Shown piece by piece: positions 10,624-53,653 of a DNA stretch of 64,000 nt; position 1 is the first letter of the stretch; each line of letters opens with the position of its first letter. The position numbers were made by a program, and so were the translations under genes. The stretch is taken from IMG/VR virus record IMGVR_UViG_3300032285_003899, positions 18,127 through 82,126 of that record. One strand, written 5' to 3'. Below the pieces are notes generated by a model, which saw only the letters and a list, made by a program, of their open reading frames with translations, did not search any database and had not been told where the DNA came from. The DNA is from a virus (lineage: Duplodnaviria > Caudoviricetes).

Positions 10624-13025
10624 AAAATTTAAATCTTACGCCTAGAGCGCAAAAGTTAATCAAAGAAGCTTATAAAATAGCTGTCGATCTCAAACACACT
10701 GAGATCACGCATCTTCATTTATTTATAAGCTTTCTTAATCTAAAGCAAAGTCAGATAGAAGAAGCTTTTGGTAATTTCGGAATAGATTCTTTAAAGATTA
10801 AGAATAGCGCTTTATCTTTTTTGAAACAAAATGTTCAGTCGCAAAAGAAAGCTACAACAAAGCCTCTACTTTCTCAAGAAATTACAAATGTATTTAAGTG
10901 CGCGAAATCTATTTCTTCAAAATTTGATCATAAGTACATAGGTTTAGAACATGTTTTTATTAGTTTGTTTGAAATTCCAGATCAAACTTTTGAAATGTTC
11001 TTAATTGATTTCGACTATAGTTTTGTAAAAGTAGTTGATTATATAGAACAAAAACTAGAGGAAGACGATATGCTTCCCGTAGCTGAAGAAGAAATTAATG
11101 TCACTAATCAAGCCAAACAAACTTTTGATATTAAAAAGTATAAGATATTAAATACTTATGCCAACAACTTGAATATGCAAGTTGCTAATGGCAAAATCAA
11201 TAATCTACATTTAAACAAAGACCTGATTCAAAAAATTTCAGAAGTTCTTTGTCGCAAAAATAAGAACAATCCACTTATTGTTGGCGAAGCTGGTGTTGGT
11301 AAAACAGCATTAGTAGAGTCCTTGGCACAAGCAATCGTCAAAGGTGAAGCTTCAGATCTACTTAGTTTGAAGCAGATTTACAGTTTGGATATTCCCATGA
11401 TGATTGCTGGATGCAAATTTCGTGGCGAGTTTGAAGAGAAGATTAAGAATCTATTAAAGGAAATAACAGATGATCCATATATTGTTCTTTTTATAGATGA
11501 GATTCATACTATTATTGGTGCTGGCAATCCAGAAAATGGAAACGATGTCGCCAATATATTAAAGCCATATCTAGCCAGAGGTGAAATAAGCTGTATTGGA
11601 GCAACAACTTTTGATGAATATAAAAAGACCATCTCTGATGATCCAGCTTTGTCTCGGCGTTTTCAGATGATTAAGATTGAAGAACCTACAAAAGAACAAA
11701 CTTTTAATCTTATCAAGAATATCAAAAGTGGATATGAAAATTTTCATATCATTGATTTTTCTGATGATGTTCTTCGCTTTACCATTAATAGTGCTGAGAA
11801 ATATATCGAAGGAAGATTTCCTGATAAAGCTTTAGATATTATTGATCAGGTAGGAGCTAAAGTTAAACTTAAGAATTTTGTAAAGTCTCCTGAAATGATC
11901 AAGATTGAAAAGAAGTTAAGCAAATTTGTCGATTCTAATAAGCAGACTATAGAAAAGAAAAAGATCGCTTCTTTAGAAGAACTCCTTGGTGAATACGAAG
12001 AATCCACAAAGAAGATGATTAACAATTGGCGAAACAATAAATATCAAGTTACTAATTCTGATATTTTAGAAGTTATTTCCGATAAAACAAATATTCCAAT
12101 TGATGATCTTAAGCTTCAAGACTTTGAAAAAGTTAAGATTCTAAAAACTAAATTAAAAGAACAAGTCTTTGGTCAAGACAATCAGATCGAACATATTTAT
12201 AAATCTTTAATTAGAGCGAAAGCAGGTTTTCGTAATACAAATAAACCAATATGCTCAATGCTTTATGCTGGGCCAACAGGAGTTGGCAAGACAATGACTG
12301 CAAAGATAATTGCCGAAACTTTATTTGTAAATAAAAACAATTTTATAACAATAGATATGTCTGAATACACAGACAAAACTGCTGTTAATAAACTGGTAGG
12401 TTCTAGTCCCGGTTATATCGGATTTGATAAAGGTGGAGTATTAACTGAGAAAGTAAGAAAAAACCCATATTCTTTAATTCTATTCGATGAAATTCAAAAA
12501 GCTGATGAAGACGTTTTGTATTCTTTGTTACAGATTCTTGAAGAAGGAAAGATAAGTGATTCTTCGGGTAAAGTTGTTGACTTTTCTAATACTATGATTG
12601 TTATGACAACAAATGTTGGTGCGGAAGTTGTCAATCATTCTGCTATAGGATTTGGAAAGCAAAAAGCTGGTAAGTCAGATGTTTTATCTTCAATCAAGAA
12701 GCATTTTCCTCCTGATTTATTAAATCGTATTGACGAGATAGTTATCTTCGATAGTCTTGAACAAGAACAGATCAAACTAATTATTGACAAGGAACTACAA
12801 GCATTTAAAACAGATCTTTTTGACAGGAATGTAAATATTAAGTATTCTTCGGAAGTAACTAACTTTATATTCAATAAGATACAATTCAATAACTTTGGTG
12901 CAAGACAAGTTATTAAGACTATTCAGCGTGAACTACAAACACAAGTAGCAGAAAAGATGTTAGATTCAGATAAGAAACTAAATTTAGAAATTCTTGTTAA
13001 GGATAACAATATTTGTGTAATCTAA
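10620..13025 (+). CDS. ClpA/ClpC-type AAA+ unfoldase
   Basis: Clp N-domain, two Walker A motifs ([16 protein letters not shown]), [12 protein letters not shown] ClpP-docking loop. Confidence 0.92.
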
Positions 13026-48480: not shown

Positions 48481-49409
48481 TGAACTACTTCACTGAACTT
48501 GTTGGGCAAGAAGAAGTCAAACGCAAGCTTTCATTTTATTTGGAAGCTCATGCTAAGACTGAACTTGTACCGTTTTTGAACTTCGTTGGCGCAAAAGGTC
48601 TAGGCAAGACTGCATTTGTTCGCGAATTTGCCAAGAATATTTATAGCACCACCGGAGTCAATAAGCCACTGCTTGAGCTAAATAGCTCTAGTATTAAATC
48701 GGGGAATCAGTTTTTCGAACAAGTTTTTCTGCCCCACATTCAAGATCAAGAAATTATTTGTTTCTTTGATGAAGCGCATTGTCTGCCAAGAGACTTTACT
48801 TACGCATTACTTTCTATTCTCTCTACAGAGAAAGATCATGTAATTGATTATAATGCTGGCAAGGCAAATTATATCTTCAATTTCAAGAAGCATCATTTTA
48901 TATTCGCGACAACTGAATCAGATAAGCTATTTATTCCGTTGCGTGATCGATTGACGACGATTGAATTTGCAGATTATAATACTAATGAACTAAGGGAGAT
49001 TTTTCAGAAAGCTCTACCGAACATTGAATTTGATGAAGAAGCGTTGTCAATGTTGTCTGAAACTTCCCGAGGCAACGCGAGATCTTGTGTCCTTCGCGCC
49101 AAAGAAGTCAAGCTTTATGCTGATCGATTTGAGATCACGCGATTTACTAAAGAAGACGCTGAGAAGTTGTTTTATATTCTTGATATTCTTCCTTACGGTT
49201 TGAATAGAATTGAGTGGCAGATACTAAATATTTTGCGTAAAGAAGGTAGCTGTACTCTTTCTATGCTTGCTGCAAAAACCGGCTTGTCAAGAACCGCGAT
49301 TCAGCGTGATCACGAATTGTATCTTATTCGTAAAGGATTTATTAGCATTGATAATGTTCGATATATTACGAGTAATGGATGTAAAGTATTAGAAGGTGTG
49401 AAGAAATAG
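48480..49409 (+). CDS. ruvB: RuvB-like Holliday-junction helicase
   Basis: LVGQEEVK, GAKGLGKT, FDEAH, ATT..PLRDR, SRGNAR, C-terminal winged helix with E.YL..KGFI. Confidence 0.88.
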   Translation: MNYFTELVGQEEVKRKLSFYLEAHAKTELVPFLNFVGAKGLGKTAFVREFAKNIYSTTGVNKPLLELNSSSIKSGNQFFEQVFLPHIQDQEIICFFDEAHCLPRDFTYALLSILSTEKDHVIDYNAGKANYIFNFKKHHFIFATTESDKLFIPLRDRLTTIEFADYNTNELREIFQKALPNIEFDEEALSMLSETSRGNARSCVLRAKEVKLYADRFEITRFTKEDAEKLFYILDILPYGLNRIEWQILNILRKEGSCTLSMLAAKTGLSRTAIQRDHELYLIRKGFISIDNVRYITSNGCKVLEGVKK

Positions 49410-49431
49410 TGTATAATATAGTGAAGTTCAA

Positions 49432-49523
49432 GCCTCAATGACCGGAAATGGCTATCGGCCTTGTTTTGTAAACAAGTATGGATTAATCATCCTTTATCAG
49501 TTCGAATCTGATTTGAGGCTCCA
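49432..49523 (+). tRNA. tRNA-Thr(UGU) with an atypical long variable arm
   Basis: GCCTCAA/TTGAGGC-T-CCA; CTTGT-TTTGTAA-ACAAG; 19-nt variable region. Confidence 0.75.
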
Positions 49524-49543
49524 CTTTTAGTGTAATATAGATT

Positions 49544-50215
49544 ATGAAATCTATAGAAATCGAATGCGAGTTTTGTAAAACTAAATTTTCAAAACTTATT
49601 AATGAATACAACAAGTGTTTAAAATCAAAACAAAAACATTTTTGTTCTCTCTCTTGTTCAGCTAAATTTGGCGGAATTTTAAGAAAACAAAAAGCTGATT
49701 TTGATAAACAAGAATATTATAAAAATCCAAAAAAGTGCAAAACTTGTAATAATGCAATAGATTATTTTGTTAAAGACGTTAATGAGTTTTGCGGATCTTC
49801 TTGTTCTGCTATATTTAATAATCCAAAAAGAGCTATTAAAAAAGTATGTGTTTGTTGCGGATCACAAACTAAAAATAAAAAATTTTGTAATATTAAATGT
49901 TTTTTTATTGATAAAAAGAAACAAACAGAGACTTGTATAGAAAAAGGTAAAAAAGTAACTAATGATACTTTCAAAGCTTATCTGATAAATAAGAACGGTC
50001 ACAAATGTCAGATGTGTTCTTTTTCTGAATGGGGCAATAAGCCTATTCTATTAATATTAGATCATATCGATGGAAATTCAGATAATTGTTCATTAGAAAA
50101 TTTAAGATTAATTTGCAGTAATTGCGATACTTTAACTCCTACTTATAAAGGCAGGAATAAAGGAAACGGAAGATACGCGAGGAGGCAGAGATATCAAGAA
50201 GGTAAAAGTTTTTGA
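49544..50215 (+). mobile_element. Zn-finger repeat + HNH homing endonuclease
   Basis: CEFC/FCS..CS repeats; CQMC...LDHIDGNSDN...NLRLICSNCD. Confidence 0.85.
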
Positions 50216-50230
50216 TCATCAAGAAACCCC

Positions 50231-50274
50231 TTGACAAACGCTGAAAGTATGGTAGATTGATCGCGTTCTTTAAA
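50231..50274 (+). promoter_or_regulatory. promoter + boxA-like cassette, repeated at 50378, 50507 and 51842
   Basis: CCCCTTGACA-N16-TAGATT...GTTCTTTAAA. Confidence 0.7.
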
Positions 50275-50281
50275 TGATTTC

Positions 50282-50370
50282 TTGTCAGACCGTTTGAGCG
50301 TTTTAGACTTTTCCTGCTCTTTACCACATTCGAAGGAGAAAGTGATGGCAGAATGTGGGCGGTCTGGCAA
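50282..50370 (+). ncRNA. unknown structured RNA (three-way junction with a kissing loop)
   Basis: 12-bp closing stem, two hairpins with complementary loops; own promoter. Confidence 0.55.
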
Positions 50371-50424
50371 ATTCCCCTTGACAAAGTAAGAAAGTGTGAT
50401 AGATTGTCAATGTTCTTTAAATTT

Positions 50425-50497
50425 TGCGGGTTGGAGAAGAGGTCATCTCGTCACGCTCATAACGTGAAGATCATCGGTTCGAATCCGATACCCGCTA
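50425..50497 (+). tRNA. tRNA-Met(CAU), initiator-like
   Basis: 1:72 mismatch; GCGGGT/ACCCGC; TCACG-CTCATAA-CGTGA; no encoded CCA. Confidence 0.85.
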
Positions 50498-50554
50498 AGT
50501 TTCCCCTTGACAATCGAAGAAAACATGATAGATTGTCAACGTTCTTTCAATAAT

Positions 50555-50630
50555 GCATCCATAGCTCAACGGTAGTAGCATCGGCCTTTTAAGCCGAGGG
50601 TTGTGAGTTCAAGTCTCACTGGATGCACCA
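50555..50630 (+). tRNA. tRNA-Lys(UUU)
   Basis: GCATCCA/TGGATGC-A-CCA; TCGGC-CTTTTAA-GCCGA. Confidence 0.95.
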
Positions 50631-50654
50631 TTTTTTTCAGTTCTTTTAAATTTT

Positions 50655-50723
50655 AAGCAGTGGAGTCACTCACAATATAATGTGTGTTATTTTTGTGAGA
50701 TAGGAATTCGTTCCTCGCTGCTT
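50655..50723 (+). ncRNA. candidate three-way-junction RNA
   Basis: AAGCAGTG/CGCTGCTT enclosing CTCACAA/TTGTGAG and AGGAA-TTCG-TTCCT. Confidence 0.45.
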
Positions 50724-50732
50724 ATTACTTTT

Positions 50733-50807
50733 AAGTAAGATAGTAAGGTTTAATAGTTTATGTTGTTGATATTAAATCTGAAAGTAATTGGTATTACAAT
50801 CTTACTT
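50733..50807 (+). ncRNA. candidate three-way-junction RNA
   Basis: AAGTAAGAT/ATCTTACTT enclosing AGGTTTAATA/TATTAAATCT and GTAAT/ATTAC. Confidence 0.4.
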
Positions 50808-50964
50808 ACTATTTTCAAGTAAATTGCAAACTGTTTTTGCAATGTCTTGATGGGTATTGTAGCGGGATCTTTGGTCTATTGATTCTGGTAAAATTCGATC
50901 CTATTCTTGTAACTACATAAAACAAGAAGTTCTTTTTAAAAATTTAATATGTAGTAGTTTCTAT

Positions 50965-51037
50965 GGGCCGTTAGCATAATGGTTTGTGCAGCGAACTCAT
51001 AATTCGTCGGTTGCTGGTTCAAGTCCAGCACGGCCCA
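50965..51037 (+). tRNA. tRNA-Ile2(CAU)-like (lysidine type; Met not excluded)
   Basis: GGGCCGT/ACGGCCC-A; GCGAA-CTCATAA-TTCGT. Confidence 0.8.
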
Positions 51038-51061
51038 CAGAGACTATTGCATATTTTTAGT

Positions 51062-51137
51062 GGTCCCGTAGCTTAACATCAAAAGCGTTCTCTTTATAAG
51101 GGATTGACTGTGGGCGAAAATCCCACCGGGACTACCA
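51062..51137 (+). tRNA. tRNA-Ile(UAU) with atypical D and T loops
   Basis: GGTCCCG/CGGGACT-A-CCA; anticodon loop TTTATAA; T loop CGAAAAT. Confidence 0.75.
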
Positions 51138-51693
51138 AATTTTTAATTTGTTCTTTACATCTTTCTTCGAAATGCAATTCAGCATGACAGTTACGGCAAA
51201 CTAATACACATTTATCTAATTCTGGTTTAATAATTTCAAATGAGCAATTTTTTTTGCGAGAAATAGCAAAGTCTTTTTTAGACGGATCTAAATGATGAAA
51301 ATCAAGTGCGCCGGGATATTTATTATATCCACACTTGACACATTTACCACCTTTATAATTGATAGCTTCTATTTTTCTTTGTTGCTGCCATTCAATAGTT
51401 CGTTTATTAGCGCATGACTTACACCATACATAAGTGTGCTTATCATTTTTAGTATAAAAACCAGTCACTAAATTTTTAGTTTCTTTGCAACGTGAACATA
51501 CTTTGTATTCAATACCATCTTTAATAATCTTTTCTTTTGCGGCATAACCTTGAGAAAAAGATTTATTAGTAGTTTTTAAATTGAATTTCTTAAGCCAGTG
51601 CCTAACATTAGTTTGACTTTTGTTTGTTGATTTTGCGATTTGATGAGTGGAAAGTCCTTGACTGATCAAGCTCTCTAGTGTAGATTTATCCAT
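51094..51693 (-). mobile_element. HTH + Zn-finger + HNH homing endonuclease
   Basis: N-terminal HTH; CSRC, CKSC, CVKC...LDFHH...CVLVCRNCHAELH. Confidence 0.85.
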
Positions 51694-51755
51694 AGTTCAA
51701 TTCTTATTACACTTTATTATAAGATTTGAACTAGTTCTTTCAATAAAATTTTAGC

Positions 51756-51830
51756 GGTCCATTGGTCTAGTGGTTATGACGCTGCCCTTTCACGGCGGAG
51801 ACGAGAATTCGATTTTCTCATGGACTACCA
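51756..51830 (+). tRNA. tRNA-Glu(UUC)
   Basis: GGTCCAT/ATGGACT-A-CCA; CTGCC-CTTTCAC-GGCGG. Confidence 0.93.
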
Positions 51831-51887
51831 AGTTTTTCCCCTTGACGGGGAGCATGATCTATAGTAGATTGTGCGTGTTCTTTAAAT

Positions 51888-52167
51888 CCCTATATAGCCC
51901 AACGGCAGAGGCAGCGAACTTTAGCGTAAATTGAGTGCTTGAAGAGAAATCTTCAAAGTAGAAATCGTCAAATTCGGGGAAACCTTTAAAATGGCAATCC
52001 CGAGCCAAGCTCAGAAATGAGAAGGTGTAGAGACTTAACGGCGATCATCTAAAACAGAAATGTCATGATGAAGAGAAAGTCCAGACCACAAATCAGTAAT
52101 GAGCAACGAAAGTTGTAGTGGTACGAAAATTCGTCAAGTGTCAGTTCGAATCTGACTATAGGGACCA
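51888..52167 (+). tRNA. tRNA-Leu(UAA), interrupted (exons 51888-51921 and 52126-52167), short variable loop
   Basis: CCCTATA/TATAGGG-A-CCA; anticodon T^AA rebuilt on splicing. Confidence 0.9.
51922..52125 (+). mobile_element. group I intron of the trnL(UAA) type, no ORF
   Basis: AAATTCGGGGAAAC (P), AATCCCGAGC (Q), GTAGAGACT (R), GAAAGTCCA (S); terminal G; IGS TTGAGT pairs with exon ACTT. Confidence 0.92.
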
Positions 52168-52200
52168 CTTTTTTGTTCTTTTACATTTTCTTTTCCAAGA

Positions 52201-52448
52201 CGGCCCACCCGGCTTCCAAGAGCTAACCCATGATAACAGAAGCTTGGAAAATCTGTTACGGACGGGGTTCTGAGGAAAAGTTACAGCTTAGGAGTCATGA
52301 CCTAAGCTGTATAATTTACATACAGTGCGCCCAAGCGATCTTGTTTTGAGTCGCTTTACACTGAGTCAACAATGGGCCGAGATTTTTCTCGCTAGAAGGA
52401 CAAGGGGCTTCATGCCCCGTTCTGTAAAAAGACTTACTTCTAGTGGGA
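52201..52448 (+). ncRNA. unknown ~250-nt multi-stem RNA
   Basis: CGGCCCA/TGGGCCG, TTCCAAG/CTTGGAA, CAGCTTAGG/CCTAAGCTG, CAGTG/CACTG, CTCGCTAGAAG/CTTCTAGTGGG, GGGGC/GCCCC; pseudoknot TAACAGA/TCTGTTA. Confidence 0.6.
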
Positions 52449-52497
52449 TTTAATTTGACAATACTATAATAGAGTATAAGATAGTTGTAGATTTTAC

Positions 52498-52576
52498 GTT
52501 CCCGTAGCTCAGTTGGATTTAGAGCAAAAGCCTTCTAAGCTTTCGGTCACAGGTTCGAATCCTGTCGGGAACGCCA
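52498..52576 (+). tRNA. tRNA-Arg(UCU)
   Basis: GTTCCCG/CGGGAAC-G-CCA; AAAGC-CTTCTAA-GCTTT. Confidence 0.95.
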
Positions 52577-52586
52577 CTTTCAAAAC

Positions 52587-52661
52587 TGATAGGTAGAATA
52601 ATGGTAATTCACAAAACTGTTAATTTTGGCGATGTTGGTTCGATTCCAACCCTATCAGCCA
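52587..52661 (+). tRNA. tRNA-Asn(GUU)
   Basis: TGATAGG/CCTATCA-G-CCA; CAAAA-CTGTTAA-TTTTG. Confidence 0.92.
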
Positions 52662-52670
52662 CTTCTTTTC

Positions 52671-52756
52671 GGGAGTATCGCATAGTGGTCAATTGCAGGA
52701 GACTGTAAATCTCCCGGCTCACGCCTACGATAGTTCAAATCTATCTGCTCCCACCA
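52671..52756 (+). tRNA. tRNA-Tyr(GUA)
   Basis: GGGAGTA/TGCTCCC-A-CCA; GGAGA-CTGTAAA-TCTCC; long variable arm. Confidence 0.95.
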
Positions 52757-52759
52757 TTT

Positions 52760-53653
52760 TCAATACATCTTAAATCCACTCAAATCAGCCTCATTAATTT
52801 TATATCCACTACTTAATGAAGCTATTGTGTTATTTACTTCATTTATATAACTAGGAATATTTGTACCTAGACCAGCAGAAGTTCCAAATGTCATATACCA
52901 GCCGCCGATCAATACAACTTCATTATTAATAATTGTAGAAACAATATTGCCGCTGTCGCCGCCAATTAATTCTTCGAAATATTGCGCTCTGTTATTATCT
53001 TTTGAAATATTTATTAACGTATTATTTGATCCGTAAGTAGTATTAAGTAAACCATTTTCTCCGATTAAAGCTTTTCTTTCTTGATCAGAATACAATATTG
53101 GAAAATTAATTTTATTTGCGTCAAAGTATTTAAGATAGTTAGCTGGCAATACATTATATATTTTTAGTGAAGCATCGACTTCTCTATCAAGTTCACCAAT
53201 TAAAATATCAGTATTTGCTACTCGCTTTGTTTTCATGACATTGTAAACAAGAGATACATCTTTATTGTTTATAAAGAAAATCATGAATGGTGAAGTCGAG
53301 TAAGGAACATGATTAGCAAACAAAACGTGTTTCTTAGTTATAAGTGTTCCGCCGCCAACTCCACCAAGAGGAACAACGGCAGCGGCATATCCAGTTAAAT
53401 CTAAACTTTTTGCCCAACAATTATTATTTCGGGGCCAATTATAAGGATTAGCATAAGGTGTTAATATATTTTTTTCTTTCTTATCTTTAATTAAATTATC
53501 GAAGTTAGAAGAAATATGAGAAAATAGATCTAATTTATTTGTGGTTACAGATTTTGGTTTGGGCGCATCATTTAAAGCTTCGTTCTTAGCTTCTGCGATT
53601 ATTTTTTGAATTAAAATTGCGTGATCTGCGAGTAGTTGGTCTAAAGCGGTCAT
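52760..53653 (-). CDS. trypsin-like serine protease
   Basis: GTLITKKHVLFANHV (His), TDIL (Asp), GGDSG (Ser); start moved to MTALDQ. Confidence 0.8.
   Translation of the reverse strand: MTALDQLLADHAILIQKIIAEAKNEALNDAPKPKSVTTNKLDLFSHISSNFDNLIKDKKEKNILTPYANPYNWPRNNNCWAKSLDLTGYAAAVVPLGGVGGGTLITKKHVLFANHVPYSTSPFMIFFINNKDVSLVYNVMKTKRVANTDILIGELDREVDASLKIYNVLPANYLKYFDANKINFPILYSDQERKALIGENGLLNTTYGSNNTLINISKDNNRAQYFEELIGGDSGNIVSTIINNEVVLIGGWYMTFGTSAGLGTNIPSYINEVNNTIASLSSGYKINEADLSGFKMY

What the first reader, a model, noticed from the sequence alone, without database searches (positions are those of the whole stretch)
50229..50372. An ~90-nt kissing-loop RNA occupying its own tRNA-style expression slot
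Seen: the same promoter-boxA cassette that drives tRNA-Met and tRNA-Lys here drives a non-tRNA element. It has a 12-bp closing stem (TTGTCAGACCGT/GCGGTCTGGCAA), a GAGC/GCTC hairpin and a CACATTC/GAATGTG hairpin. The two loops are complementary (ACTTTTCCT against AGGAGAAAGT, 9 bp with one bulge). Established: three-way junctions with loop-loop pairing occur in the SRP Alu domain and purine riboswitches, but those conserved cores are absent here. Inference: a novel small RNA, possibly a tRNA-shaped decoy for anticodon nucleases or a ribosome-binding RNA.
Basis: partly seen in the sequence, partly recalled or inferred. Interest (0 to 1): 0.75.

Follow-up and report, generated by a model that had tools for sequence, protein, structure and literature searches.

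The report
Phage copy of CyVA-1-type RNA
The flagged stretch is a real, tightly folded small RNA gene that sits under its own tRNA-style promoter in a phage tRNA cluster, but it is a divergent relative of the catalogued CyVA-1 RNA, whose job is still unknown, rather than a new kind of RNA.

Summary
An 89-nt element (50282-50370, + strand) follows one of four near-identical promoter cassettes that otherwise drive tRNAs. It folds into a three-way junction (12-bp P1, 4-bp P2, 8-bp P3) with complementary loops. It is not a new RNA class. Rfam's CyVA-1 model (RF02965) matches it at 38.2 bits (cut-off 41.4; E about 1e-7 locally). A covariance model I built from 23 chromosomal CyVA-1 copies finds it as the only significant hit in the 64-kb window (32.7 bits, E 9e-7). 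Four further members share its loop-loop register: two IMG/VR contigs below the cut-off, one IMG/VR contig and one Acidobacteriota MAG above it. Across the five sequences all three stems and three kissing pairs covary. Closely related phages have the same tRNA array but carry other small RNAs in this slot, so the element is a lineage-specific acquisition. Function is unknown. I infer a stable trans-acting RNA that displays invariant loop bases, including a Shine-Dalgarno-like motif, to a conserved host factor. The tRNA-decoy idea has no support. This scan has already found CyVA-1-type RNAs in other phages. One point is unexplained: the gene's 5' half itself matches the promoter cassette.

The parts
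50231..50258 (+). sigma-70-type promoter: -35 TTGACA (50231-50236), 16-nt spacer, TG (50250-50251), -10 TAGATT (50253-50258)
   Evidence: one of three near-identical cassettes plus a fourth variant
50265..50281 (+). predicted 5' leader starting with the boxA-like GTTCTTTAAA motif; the start site near 50265 is inferred from -10 spacing
   Evidence: the start site was not measured
50282..50370 (+). CyVA-1-type RNA, about 89 nt from the first to the last base of P1
   Evidence: Rfam RF02965 38.2 bits at 50287-50365; own model R1 32.7 bits, E 9e-7 at 50287-50367, the only hit in the window
50282..50293 (+). P1 5' strand; pairs with 50359-50370 (12 bp, G-U at 50285:50367 and 50293:50359)
   Evidence: P1 covaries in relatives
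50296..50299 (+). P2 5' strand (GAGC); pairs with 50316-50319
50300..50315 (+). loop 1: family-invariant GUUUU (50300-50304) followed by the kissing segment 50307-50315
50324..50331 (+). P3 5' strand; pairs with 50351-50358 (8 bp)
50332..50350 (+). loop 2 (19 nt): family-invariant GAAGGAGA (50332-50339); kissing segment 50334-50343 with G50338 bulged; the tail keeps GA-G-CA
50359..50370 (+). P1 3' strand; the next cassette's -35 starts 8 nt later (50378) with no terminator between

Best explanation
Window 50282-50370 (+) encodes a divergent, phage-borne relative of the CyVA-1 structured small RNA. Host RNA polymerase reads it from a strong sigma-70-type promoter of the same cassette type that drives the neighbouring tRNA genes. 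No terminator follows, so it is probably made as the first unit of a CyVA-tRNA-Met-tRNA-Lys precursor and released by tRNA-type processing (inferred). The RNA folds into a three-way junction. Loop 1 and loop 2 form a 9-bp kissing helix that takes up the GGAG core of the invariant Shine-Dalgarno-like motif. The invariant GUUUU, GAA and GGCA bases are left unpaired around that helix. The internally paired bases vary and covary, while the unpaired bases are the same in cyanobacteria, an Acidobacteriota MAG and unrelated phages. I therefore infer that it acts in trans as a stable RNA that presents a fixed surface to a widely conserved host factor, most likely part of the translation or RNA-processing machinery. 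I do not think it works as an antisense regulator of phage-specific messages. Shown: family relationship, fold, kissing helix, strand, promoter motif. Inferred: expression, processing, trans action, type of partner.
For: Family: Rfam RF02965 38.2 bits, E 5e-7 over 651 nt and 1e-7 over 116 nt. An independent model built from 23 chromosomal copies gives 32.7 bits, E 9e-7, with the next hit in the window at 13.2 bits. The spacing between GUUUU and GAAGGAGA is the same as in all aligned members. Fold: MFE z -3.2. In five type-II sequences 18 of 19 stem pairs show double changes and 89.9% of cells are paired, against 35-49% in slid controls. In 34 family sequences 93.8% are paired. Kissing helix: 9 pairs, 93.3% paired, 3 pairs with compensatory changes, covariation score 0.42 against 0.09 in shuffles (0/500) and at most 0.11 in slid controls. 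The covarying positions were free in the search patterns. Strand: only the + strand scores, there are two G-U pairs in P1, and the orientation matches the promoter and the tRNAs. Promoter: perfect -35, TG-extended -10, shared with the tRNA-Met and tRNA-Lys units. Free-standing gene: chromosomal copies have variable downstream genes. In contig G001 the closest relative lies between a terminator and the next gene's promoter.
Against: The Rfam score is below the curated cut-off, and the 3' half of loop 2 departs from the family's invariant CGACGUCA. No close homologue was found (best 58% identity). The element is absent from 52 loci of related phages, so its conservation within this phage lineage cannot be shown. 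Loop-loop energy alone is not significant. Nothing tested here bears on the partner or on trans action. The 5' half also matches the promoter cassette, which may point to a DNA-level role.
Confidence: 0.55

Rival explanations
1. Riboswitch-like aptamer: the three-way junction with a loop-loop contact binds a small molecule. The invariant loop bases form the pocket, and the Shine-Dalgarno-like motif is hidden or exposed in response.
For: The architecture (P1-P2-P3 plus a kissing helix) resembles that of purine riboswitches (general knowledge). Invariant bases cluster around the tertiary contact. One relative (L459) lies directly upstream of an ORF with its own ribosome-binding site.
Against: In this window the next gene is a tRNA with its own promoter, so there is no expression platform and no ORF to control. 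In cyanobacteria the downstream genes vary and lie 139-1400 nt away. There is no Rfam riboswitch match.
Confidence: 0.12
2. DNA-level element: the 5' half (50282-50322) is an additional tandem promoter plus boxA-like leader for the downstream tRNA genes. The RNA fold is then secondary, or the stretch serves both purposes.
For: With fixed spacing and at most one substitution per motif, the cassette pattern matches only the three true cassettes and position 50282 in the whole window. None of 20,000 shuffles of the element match. The promoter scan lists TTGTCA-16-TAGACT as a 9/12 match.
Against: The same bases take part in P1, P2 and the kissing helix, which covary with their partners in homologues that lack the promoter-like motifs. 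The spacers are not homologous to the cassettes. Two covariance models recognise the whole 80-nt fold.
Confidence: 0.15
3. tRNA-shaped decoy that soaks up host anticodon nucleases.
For: It lies in a phage tRNA array and has a tRNA-like size. Its 12-bp P1 is as long as an acceptor/T-arm stack (the comparison is an inference).
Against: There is no 7-nt anticodon-type loop, no T-loop or D-loop motif and no tRNA model hit. Family members in cyanobacterial chromosomes have no tRNA within 8 kb. P1 length is not conserved, being 6-10 bp elsewhere.
Confidence: 0.04
4. Leader and start of a 14-codon ORF: GGAG at 50335-50338 lies 6 nt before ATG 50345, and the frame ends at 50387-50389.
For: The Shine-Dalgarno-to-ATG spacing is ideal (read).
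Against: The ATG is absent at this place in L466, L472, L459, L330 and all chromosomal copies. Conservation follows base pairing, not codons. The ORF runs into the next promoter.
Confidence: 0.03

Closest known systems
CyVA-1 RNA motif (Rfam RF02965; Weinberg et al. 2017, PMC5737381; Rfam type 'Gene; sRNA'; detected in a halite metatranscriptome, bioRxiv 10.1101/761684)
   Same: Three-way junction with the same helix order. Invariant GUUUU at the start of loop 1 and GAAGGAGA at the start of loop 2, at the same spacing. A loop-loop pairing core. About 80 nt. Function unknown.
   Different: Scores 38.2 against the 41.4 cut-off. Loop 2 is 2 nt longer and its 3' half differs. The kissing helix is extended to 9 bp, compared with a 4-bp core in cyanobacterial copies. 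P1 is 12 bp. It sits in a phage tRNA array under its own sigma-70 promoter, whereas cyanobacterial copies lie downstream of membrane-protein genes in the chromosome.
[quoted passage not shown]
   Same: Phage-encoded non-tRNA small RNAs located among the phage's tRNA genes, with unknown role.
   Different: No sequence or fold comparison was made here. T4 RNAC and RNAD are reported as late RNAs, whereas this element has a host-type promoter. This is an analogy of context only.
Purine-riboswitch-type three-way junctions with a loop-loop contact (general knowledge, not tested by fold comparison)
   Same: P1-P2-P3 junction whose two distal loops pair.
   Different: No Rfam match. Here the loops, not the junction, carry the invariant bases. 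There is no expression platform.

Membership tests
CyVA-1 (RF02965) | Three-way junction P1/P2/P3 in the family's order and size | tested here: met
CyVA-1 (RF02965) | Loop 1 starts with invariant GUUUU | tested here: met
   50300-50304
CyVA-1 (RF02965) | Loop 2 starts with invariant GAAGGAGA, 25-29 nt after GUUUU | tested here: met
   50332-50339, 27-nt spacing
CyVA-1 (RF02965) | Loop 2 3' half CGACGUCA (invariant in 23 chromosomal copies) | tested here: not met
   The window has GUGAUGGCA; only GA-G-CA is kept
CyVA-1 (RF02965) | Rfam gathering score of 41.4 bits | tested here: not met
   38.2 bits. The relatives L459 (54.6) and L330 (49.2) pass; L466 (39.5) does not
CyVA-1 (RF02965) | Loop 1 to loop 2 pairing core | tested here: met
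   A 4-bp core is 93.8% paired in 34 sequences. It is extended to 9 bp with covariation in the window's subtype
CyVA-1 (RF02965) | Chromosomal context: free-standing, 70-260 nt downstream of a same-strand gene, no tRNA nearby | tested here: not met
   The window copy has its own promoter inside a tRNA array.
tRNA (RF00005) | Cloverleaf with anticodon loop and T-loop | tested here: not met
   No ARAGORN or Rfam tRNA hit at 50282-50370
Purine riboswitch / SRP Alu domain | Conserved junction or loop cores recognised by the Rfam models | tested here: not met
   Only CyVA-1 matches at E up to 1
T4 RNAC/RNAD | Sequence or fold homology | not tested
   Only the shared context is cited (PMC3014915)

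The most novel reading that the evidence does not exclude
Phage-type CyVA-1 RNAs are a class of translation-directed phage RNAs. The invariant Shine-Dalgarno-like loop is held in a kissing helix. The invariant GUUUU tract may stabilise that helix by lying in its groove as U-A-U triples. The resulting surface docks on the host 30S subunit or another universal translation or RNA-processing factor. Phages express the RNA from tRNA-type units to retune host translation.
Probability: 0.12. Interest if true: 0.75.

Novelty: new variant of a known kind. Interest (0 to 1): 0.38.

Why it matters
CyVA-1 is a catalogued RNA with no known function. This copy sits behind a strong host-type promoter, side by side with tRNA genes in a large uncultured phage. 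That placement argues that the RNA is a stable, abundant, trans-acting molecule that is useful during infection. The phage-type copies also supply what the near-invariant cyanobacterial copies cannot. They give compensatory changes that establish the loop-loop helix, and they separate bases that only need to pair from bases that must stay the same. This provides a concrete design for probing, pull-down and ribosome-binding experiments on the family.

Tried and rejected
1. Close DNA relatives. Megablast and blastn of the region and of the element against 50,697 phage records gave only tRNA and HNH matches or nothing. The elements from L472 and L466 also gave nothing.
2. An exact 29-mer from the element had no hit in IMG/VR.
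One tighter pattern yielded a single true member, L459.
4. A metagenome pattern for the window's own loop type gave 6 hits, none real.
5. Related phages were fetched through the neighbouring RuvB-like gene and through the cassette. None of the 52 loci carries the element.
6. The whole records of those relatives are not held. No genome is held for the window.
8. Loop-loop duplex energy against shuffled loops is not significant for the window or for any chromosomal copy. I do not use it as evidence.
9. Gene neighbourhood of chromosomal CyVA-1. Upstream there is a cation-efflux gene in one clade and an unnamed 230-aa membrane protein in another. RtcB lies downstream only in Coleofasciculus. No consistent functional clue emerged.
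10. The virion protein of the window has no match in the three phage records that carry relatives. G001 shares only a few small proteins with the window. The RNA is therefore not inherited with a common phage backbone.
11. The 14-codon ORF is rejected as not conserved.

Full report
WHAT IS THERE

The window is part of a large, AT-rich (about 34% GC) uncultured phage. It carries a DnaE-type polymerase, a Lon-like protease, rIIA/rIIB and UvsX. No isolated phage is a close relative. Positions 49400-52800 hold an array of tRNA genes, a group I intron and HNH genes.

A promoter cassette recurs in this array. It consists of a -35 TTGACA, 16 nt, a TG-extended -10 TAGATT, 6 nt, and a boxA-like GTTCTTTAAA motif. 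It occurs at 50231, 50378 and 50507, and with a 17-nt spacer at 51842. The copies at 50378, 50507 and 51842 are followed by tRNA-Met, tRNA-Lys and the intron-bearing tRNA-Leu. The copy at 50231 is followed by the flagged element.

THE ELEMENT

Reading the sequence gives these parts:
- P1: 50282-50293 pairs with 50359-50370 (12 bp, two G-U pairs).
- P2: 50296-50299 pairs with 50316-50319.
- P3: 50324-50331 pairs with 50351-50358.
- Loop 1 is 16 nt and loop 2 is 19 nt.

The minimum-energy fold is this three-way junction, at -31.7 kcal/mol with z -3.2.

Taken alone, this complementarity is not better than chance. Loop 1 is pyrimidine-rich and loop 2 is purine-rich, and about 18% of shuffled loops pair as well.

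WHAT IT IS

An Rfam scan at relaxed threshold gives one match, CyVA-1 (RF02965), at 50287-50365. The score is 38.2 bits, against a curated cut-off of 41.4. The E-value is 5e-7 for 651 nt and 1e-7 for 116 nt.

To check this independently I collected chromosomal CyVA-1 copies from cyanobacterial genomes. I aligned 23 of them; their P2 and P3 covary strongly. From these I built a covariance model that contains no window sequence. Run with filters off over both strands of the whole window, it finds one significant hit: 50287-50367 on the + strand, 32.7 bits, E 9e-7. The next best hit scores 13.2 bits.

The window shares several features with all of these copies: the helix order, the invariant GUUUU at the start of loop 1, the invariant GAAGGAGA at the start of loop 2, and the spacing between the two motifs.

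It differs in three respects. Loop 2 is 2 nt longer. Its 3' half keeps only GA-G-CA of the family's invariant CGACGUCA. P1 is longer.

THE LOOP-LOOP CONTACT

Two members that pass Rfam's cut-off are L330 (an Acidobacteriota MAG, 49.2 bits) and L459 (an IMG/VR contig, 54.6 bits). Both can form the same kissing helix as the window, in the same register and with the same bulged G.

I then ran a pattern that fixed only the invariant half of this helix and left the other half free. It returned 11 IMG/VR stretches. My model recognised two of them as full three-way junctions:
- L466 lies on a 78-kb contig. Rfam scores it 39.5 bits, and it is the closest relative of the window element at 58% identity.
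- L472 lies on a complete 149-kb phage genome, next to tRNA-Cys and two tRNA-Gln genes on the opposite strand.

On the alignment of these five sequences the nine kissing pairs are 93.3% paired. Three pairs change on both sides (types UA/AU/CG, CG/AU and GC/UA/CG). The covariation score is 0.42, against 0.09 in shuffles (0 of 500 as high) and at most 0.11 when the partner is slid by 1-3 columns.

The stems behave the same way. On the model-fitted alignment of the same five sequences, 18 of 19 stem pairs show compensatory changes. That alignment leans towards the model's structure, which is a caveat.

In the wider family a 4-bp core of the same helix is 93.8% paired. It varies on one side only: U-G, C-G and U-A occur, C-A never does.

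The test is passed: the complementarity is conserved.

STRAND AND EXPRESSION

Only the + strand scores. P1 has two G-U pairs that would be A-C mismatches on the other strand. The promoter and all neighbouring tRNAs point the same way.

There is no terminator between 50370 and the next -35 at 50378. I therefore infer that the RNA is co-transcribed with tRNA-Met and tRNA-Lys and released by processing. T4's RNAC and RNAD are also made from that phage's tRNA region, and their roles are likewise unknown (PMC3014915, PMC9697503).

DISTRIBUTION

I fetched related phage contigs through the adjacent RuvB-like gene (92-98% protein identity) and through the cassette itself. They have the same array but not this element. 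Behind the orthologous first cassette they carry either a 46-nt hairpin or an odd cloverleaf RNA with a UUU anticodon-type loop.

The repeated cassettes thus frame exchangeable small-RNA units, and the CyVA-type unit is a lineage-specific acquisition. The phage records that carry its relatives share almost no proteins with the window.

In cyanobacterial chromosomes the family lies 70-260 nt downstream of a same-strand gene. In one clade that gene is a cation-efflux gene; in another it is an unnamed 230-aa membrane protein. No tRNA lies within 8 kb, and the downstream genes vary. In contig G001 the relative lies between an intrinsic terminator and the next gene's promoter. These contexts fit a free-standing small RNA gene, which is Rfam's classification.

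HOW IT MAY WORK (INFERENCE)

The bases that pair internally vary and covary. The unpaired bases around the kissing helix are identical in cyanobacteria, an Acidobacteriota MAG and unrelated phages. These are GUUUU, the GAA before the helix, the bulged G and the GGCA/GUCA tail.

That pattern fits an RNA that shows a fixed surface to a widely conserved partner. It does not fit an antisense regulator. The Shine-Dalgarno-like motif makes the translation apparatus the first candidate partner.

The invariant U-tract, next to a helix with three invariant A-U pairs, could form base triples. I rate the identity and the fold at about 0.85 and this mechanism at about 0.3.

The rival readings are a riboswitch-like aptamer, an embedded promoter, a tRNA decoy and a 14-codon ORF. 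They are weighed in the Rival explanations section.

AN UNEXPLAINED POINT

I searched the window for the cassette pattern with fixed spacing and at most one substitution per motif. In 64 kb, on both strands, it matches only the three true cassettes and the element's own 5' half: TTGTCA at 50282, TAGACT at 50304 and GCTCTTT at 50316. None of 20,000 shuffles of the element match. The spacers are not homologous to the cassettes, so this is not a recent duplicate. Relatives of the RNA lack the motifs. I cannot say whether this is an embedded tandem promoter or convergence.

VERDICT

The interpretation as a novel RNA is not. This is a divergent phage variant of a known RNA family of unknown function. 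This scan has already met the same family in several other phages.

Noticed in passing
window 50282-50322: The 5' half of the RNA gene matches the promoter cassette at exact spacing (TTGTCA-16-TAGACT-6-GCTCTTT). It is the only such match in the window besides the three true cassettes, and 0 of 20,000 shuffles match. GCTCTTTAC is closer to the E. coli boxA core than the cassettes' own motif.
   Followed up: partly
L272:11510-11557, L273:11510-11584 and the same slot in L274-L285: In related phages the orthologous first cassette drives a 46-nt hairpin RNA (z -3.3) or a 75-nt cloverleaf with a UUU anticodon-type loop that ARAGORN does not call. The cassettes frame exchangeable small-RNA units.
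   Followed up: partly
window 50653-50727: Another non-tRNA structured RNA sits directly after tRNA-Lys and a GTTCTTTTA motif. It folds into a three-armed structure at -23.5 kcal/mol, z -4.2, and is about 81% conserved in related contigs.
   Followed up: partly
window 50640, 51150, 51734, 52175: The GTTCTTT(A/T/C)A motif also occurs without any promoter, just after T-runs that follow RNA genes and before the next RNA. It may be a spacer or processing signal, or a boxA-type signal, rather than part of the promoter.
   Followed up: no
window 49432-49523 and 51062-51134: ARAGORN calls a 92-nt tRNA-Thr at 49432-49523 that the Rfam tRNA model does not report at gathering score; relatives have a 75-nt tRNA-Thr there. 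Rfam reports a tRNA at 51062-51134 that ARAGORN misses.
   Followed up: no
window 49544-50215; L272/L273 about 11030-11450: An HNH endonuclease gene lies between tRNA-Thr and the first cassette. Related phages have a different, unrelated HNH gene at the same place, and the closest relatives (L270, L271) have none.
   Followed up: partly
L323-L360 (cyanobacterial genomes): Chromosomal CyVA-1 lies 70-260 nt downstream of a same-strand gene: a cation-efflux (CDF) gene in 10 loci, or an unnamed multi-pass 230-aa membrane protein in 9 loci. Some genomes hold two copies (L327; G005).
   Followed up: partly
window 51912-52099: A group I intron (Rfam 71.5 bits) lies inside the tRNA-Leu gene driven by the fourth cassette.
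   Followed up: no
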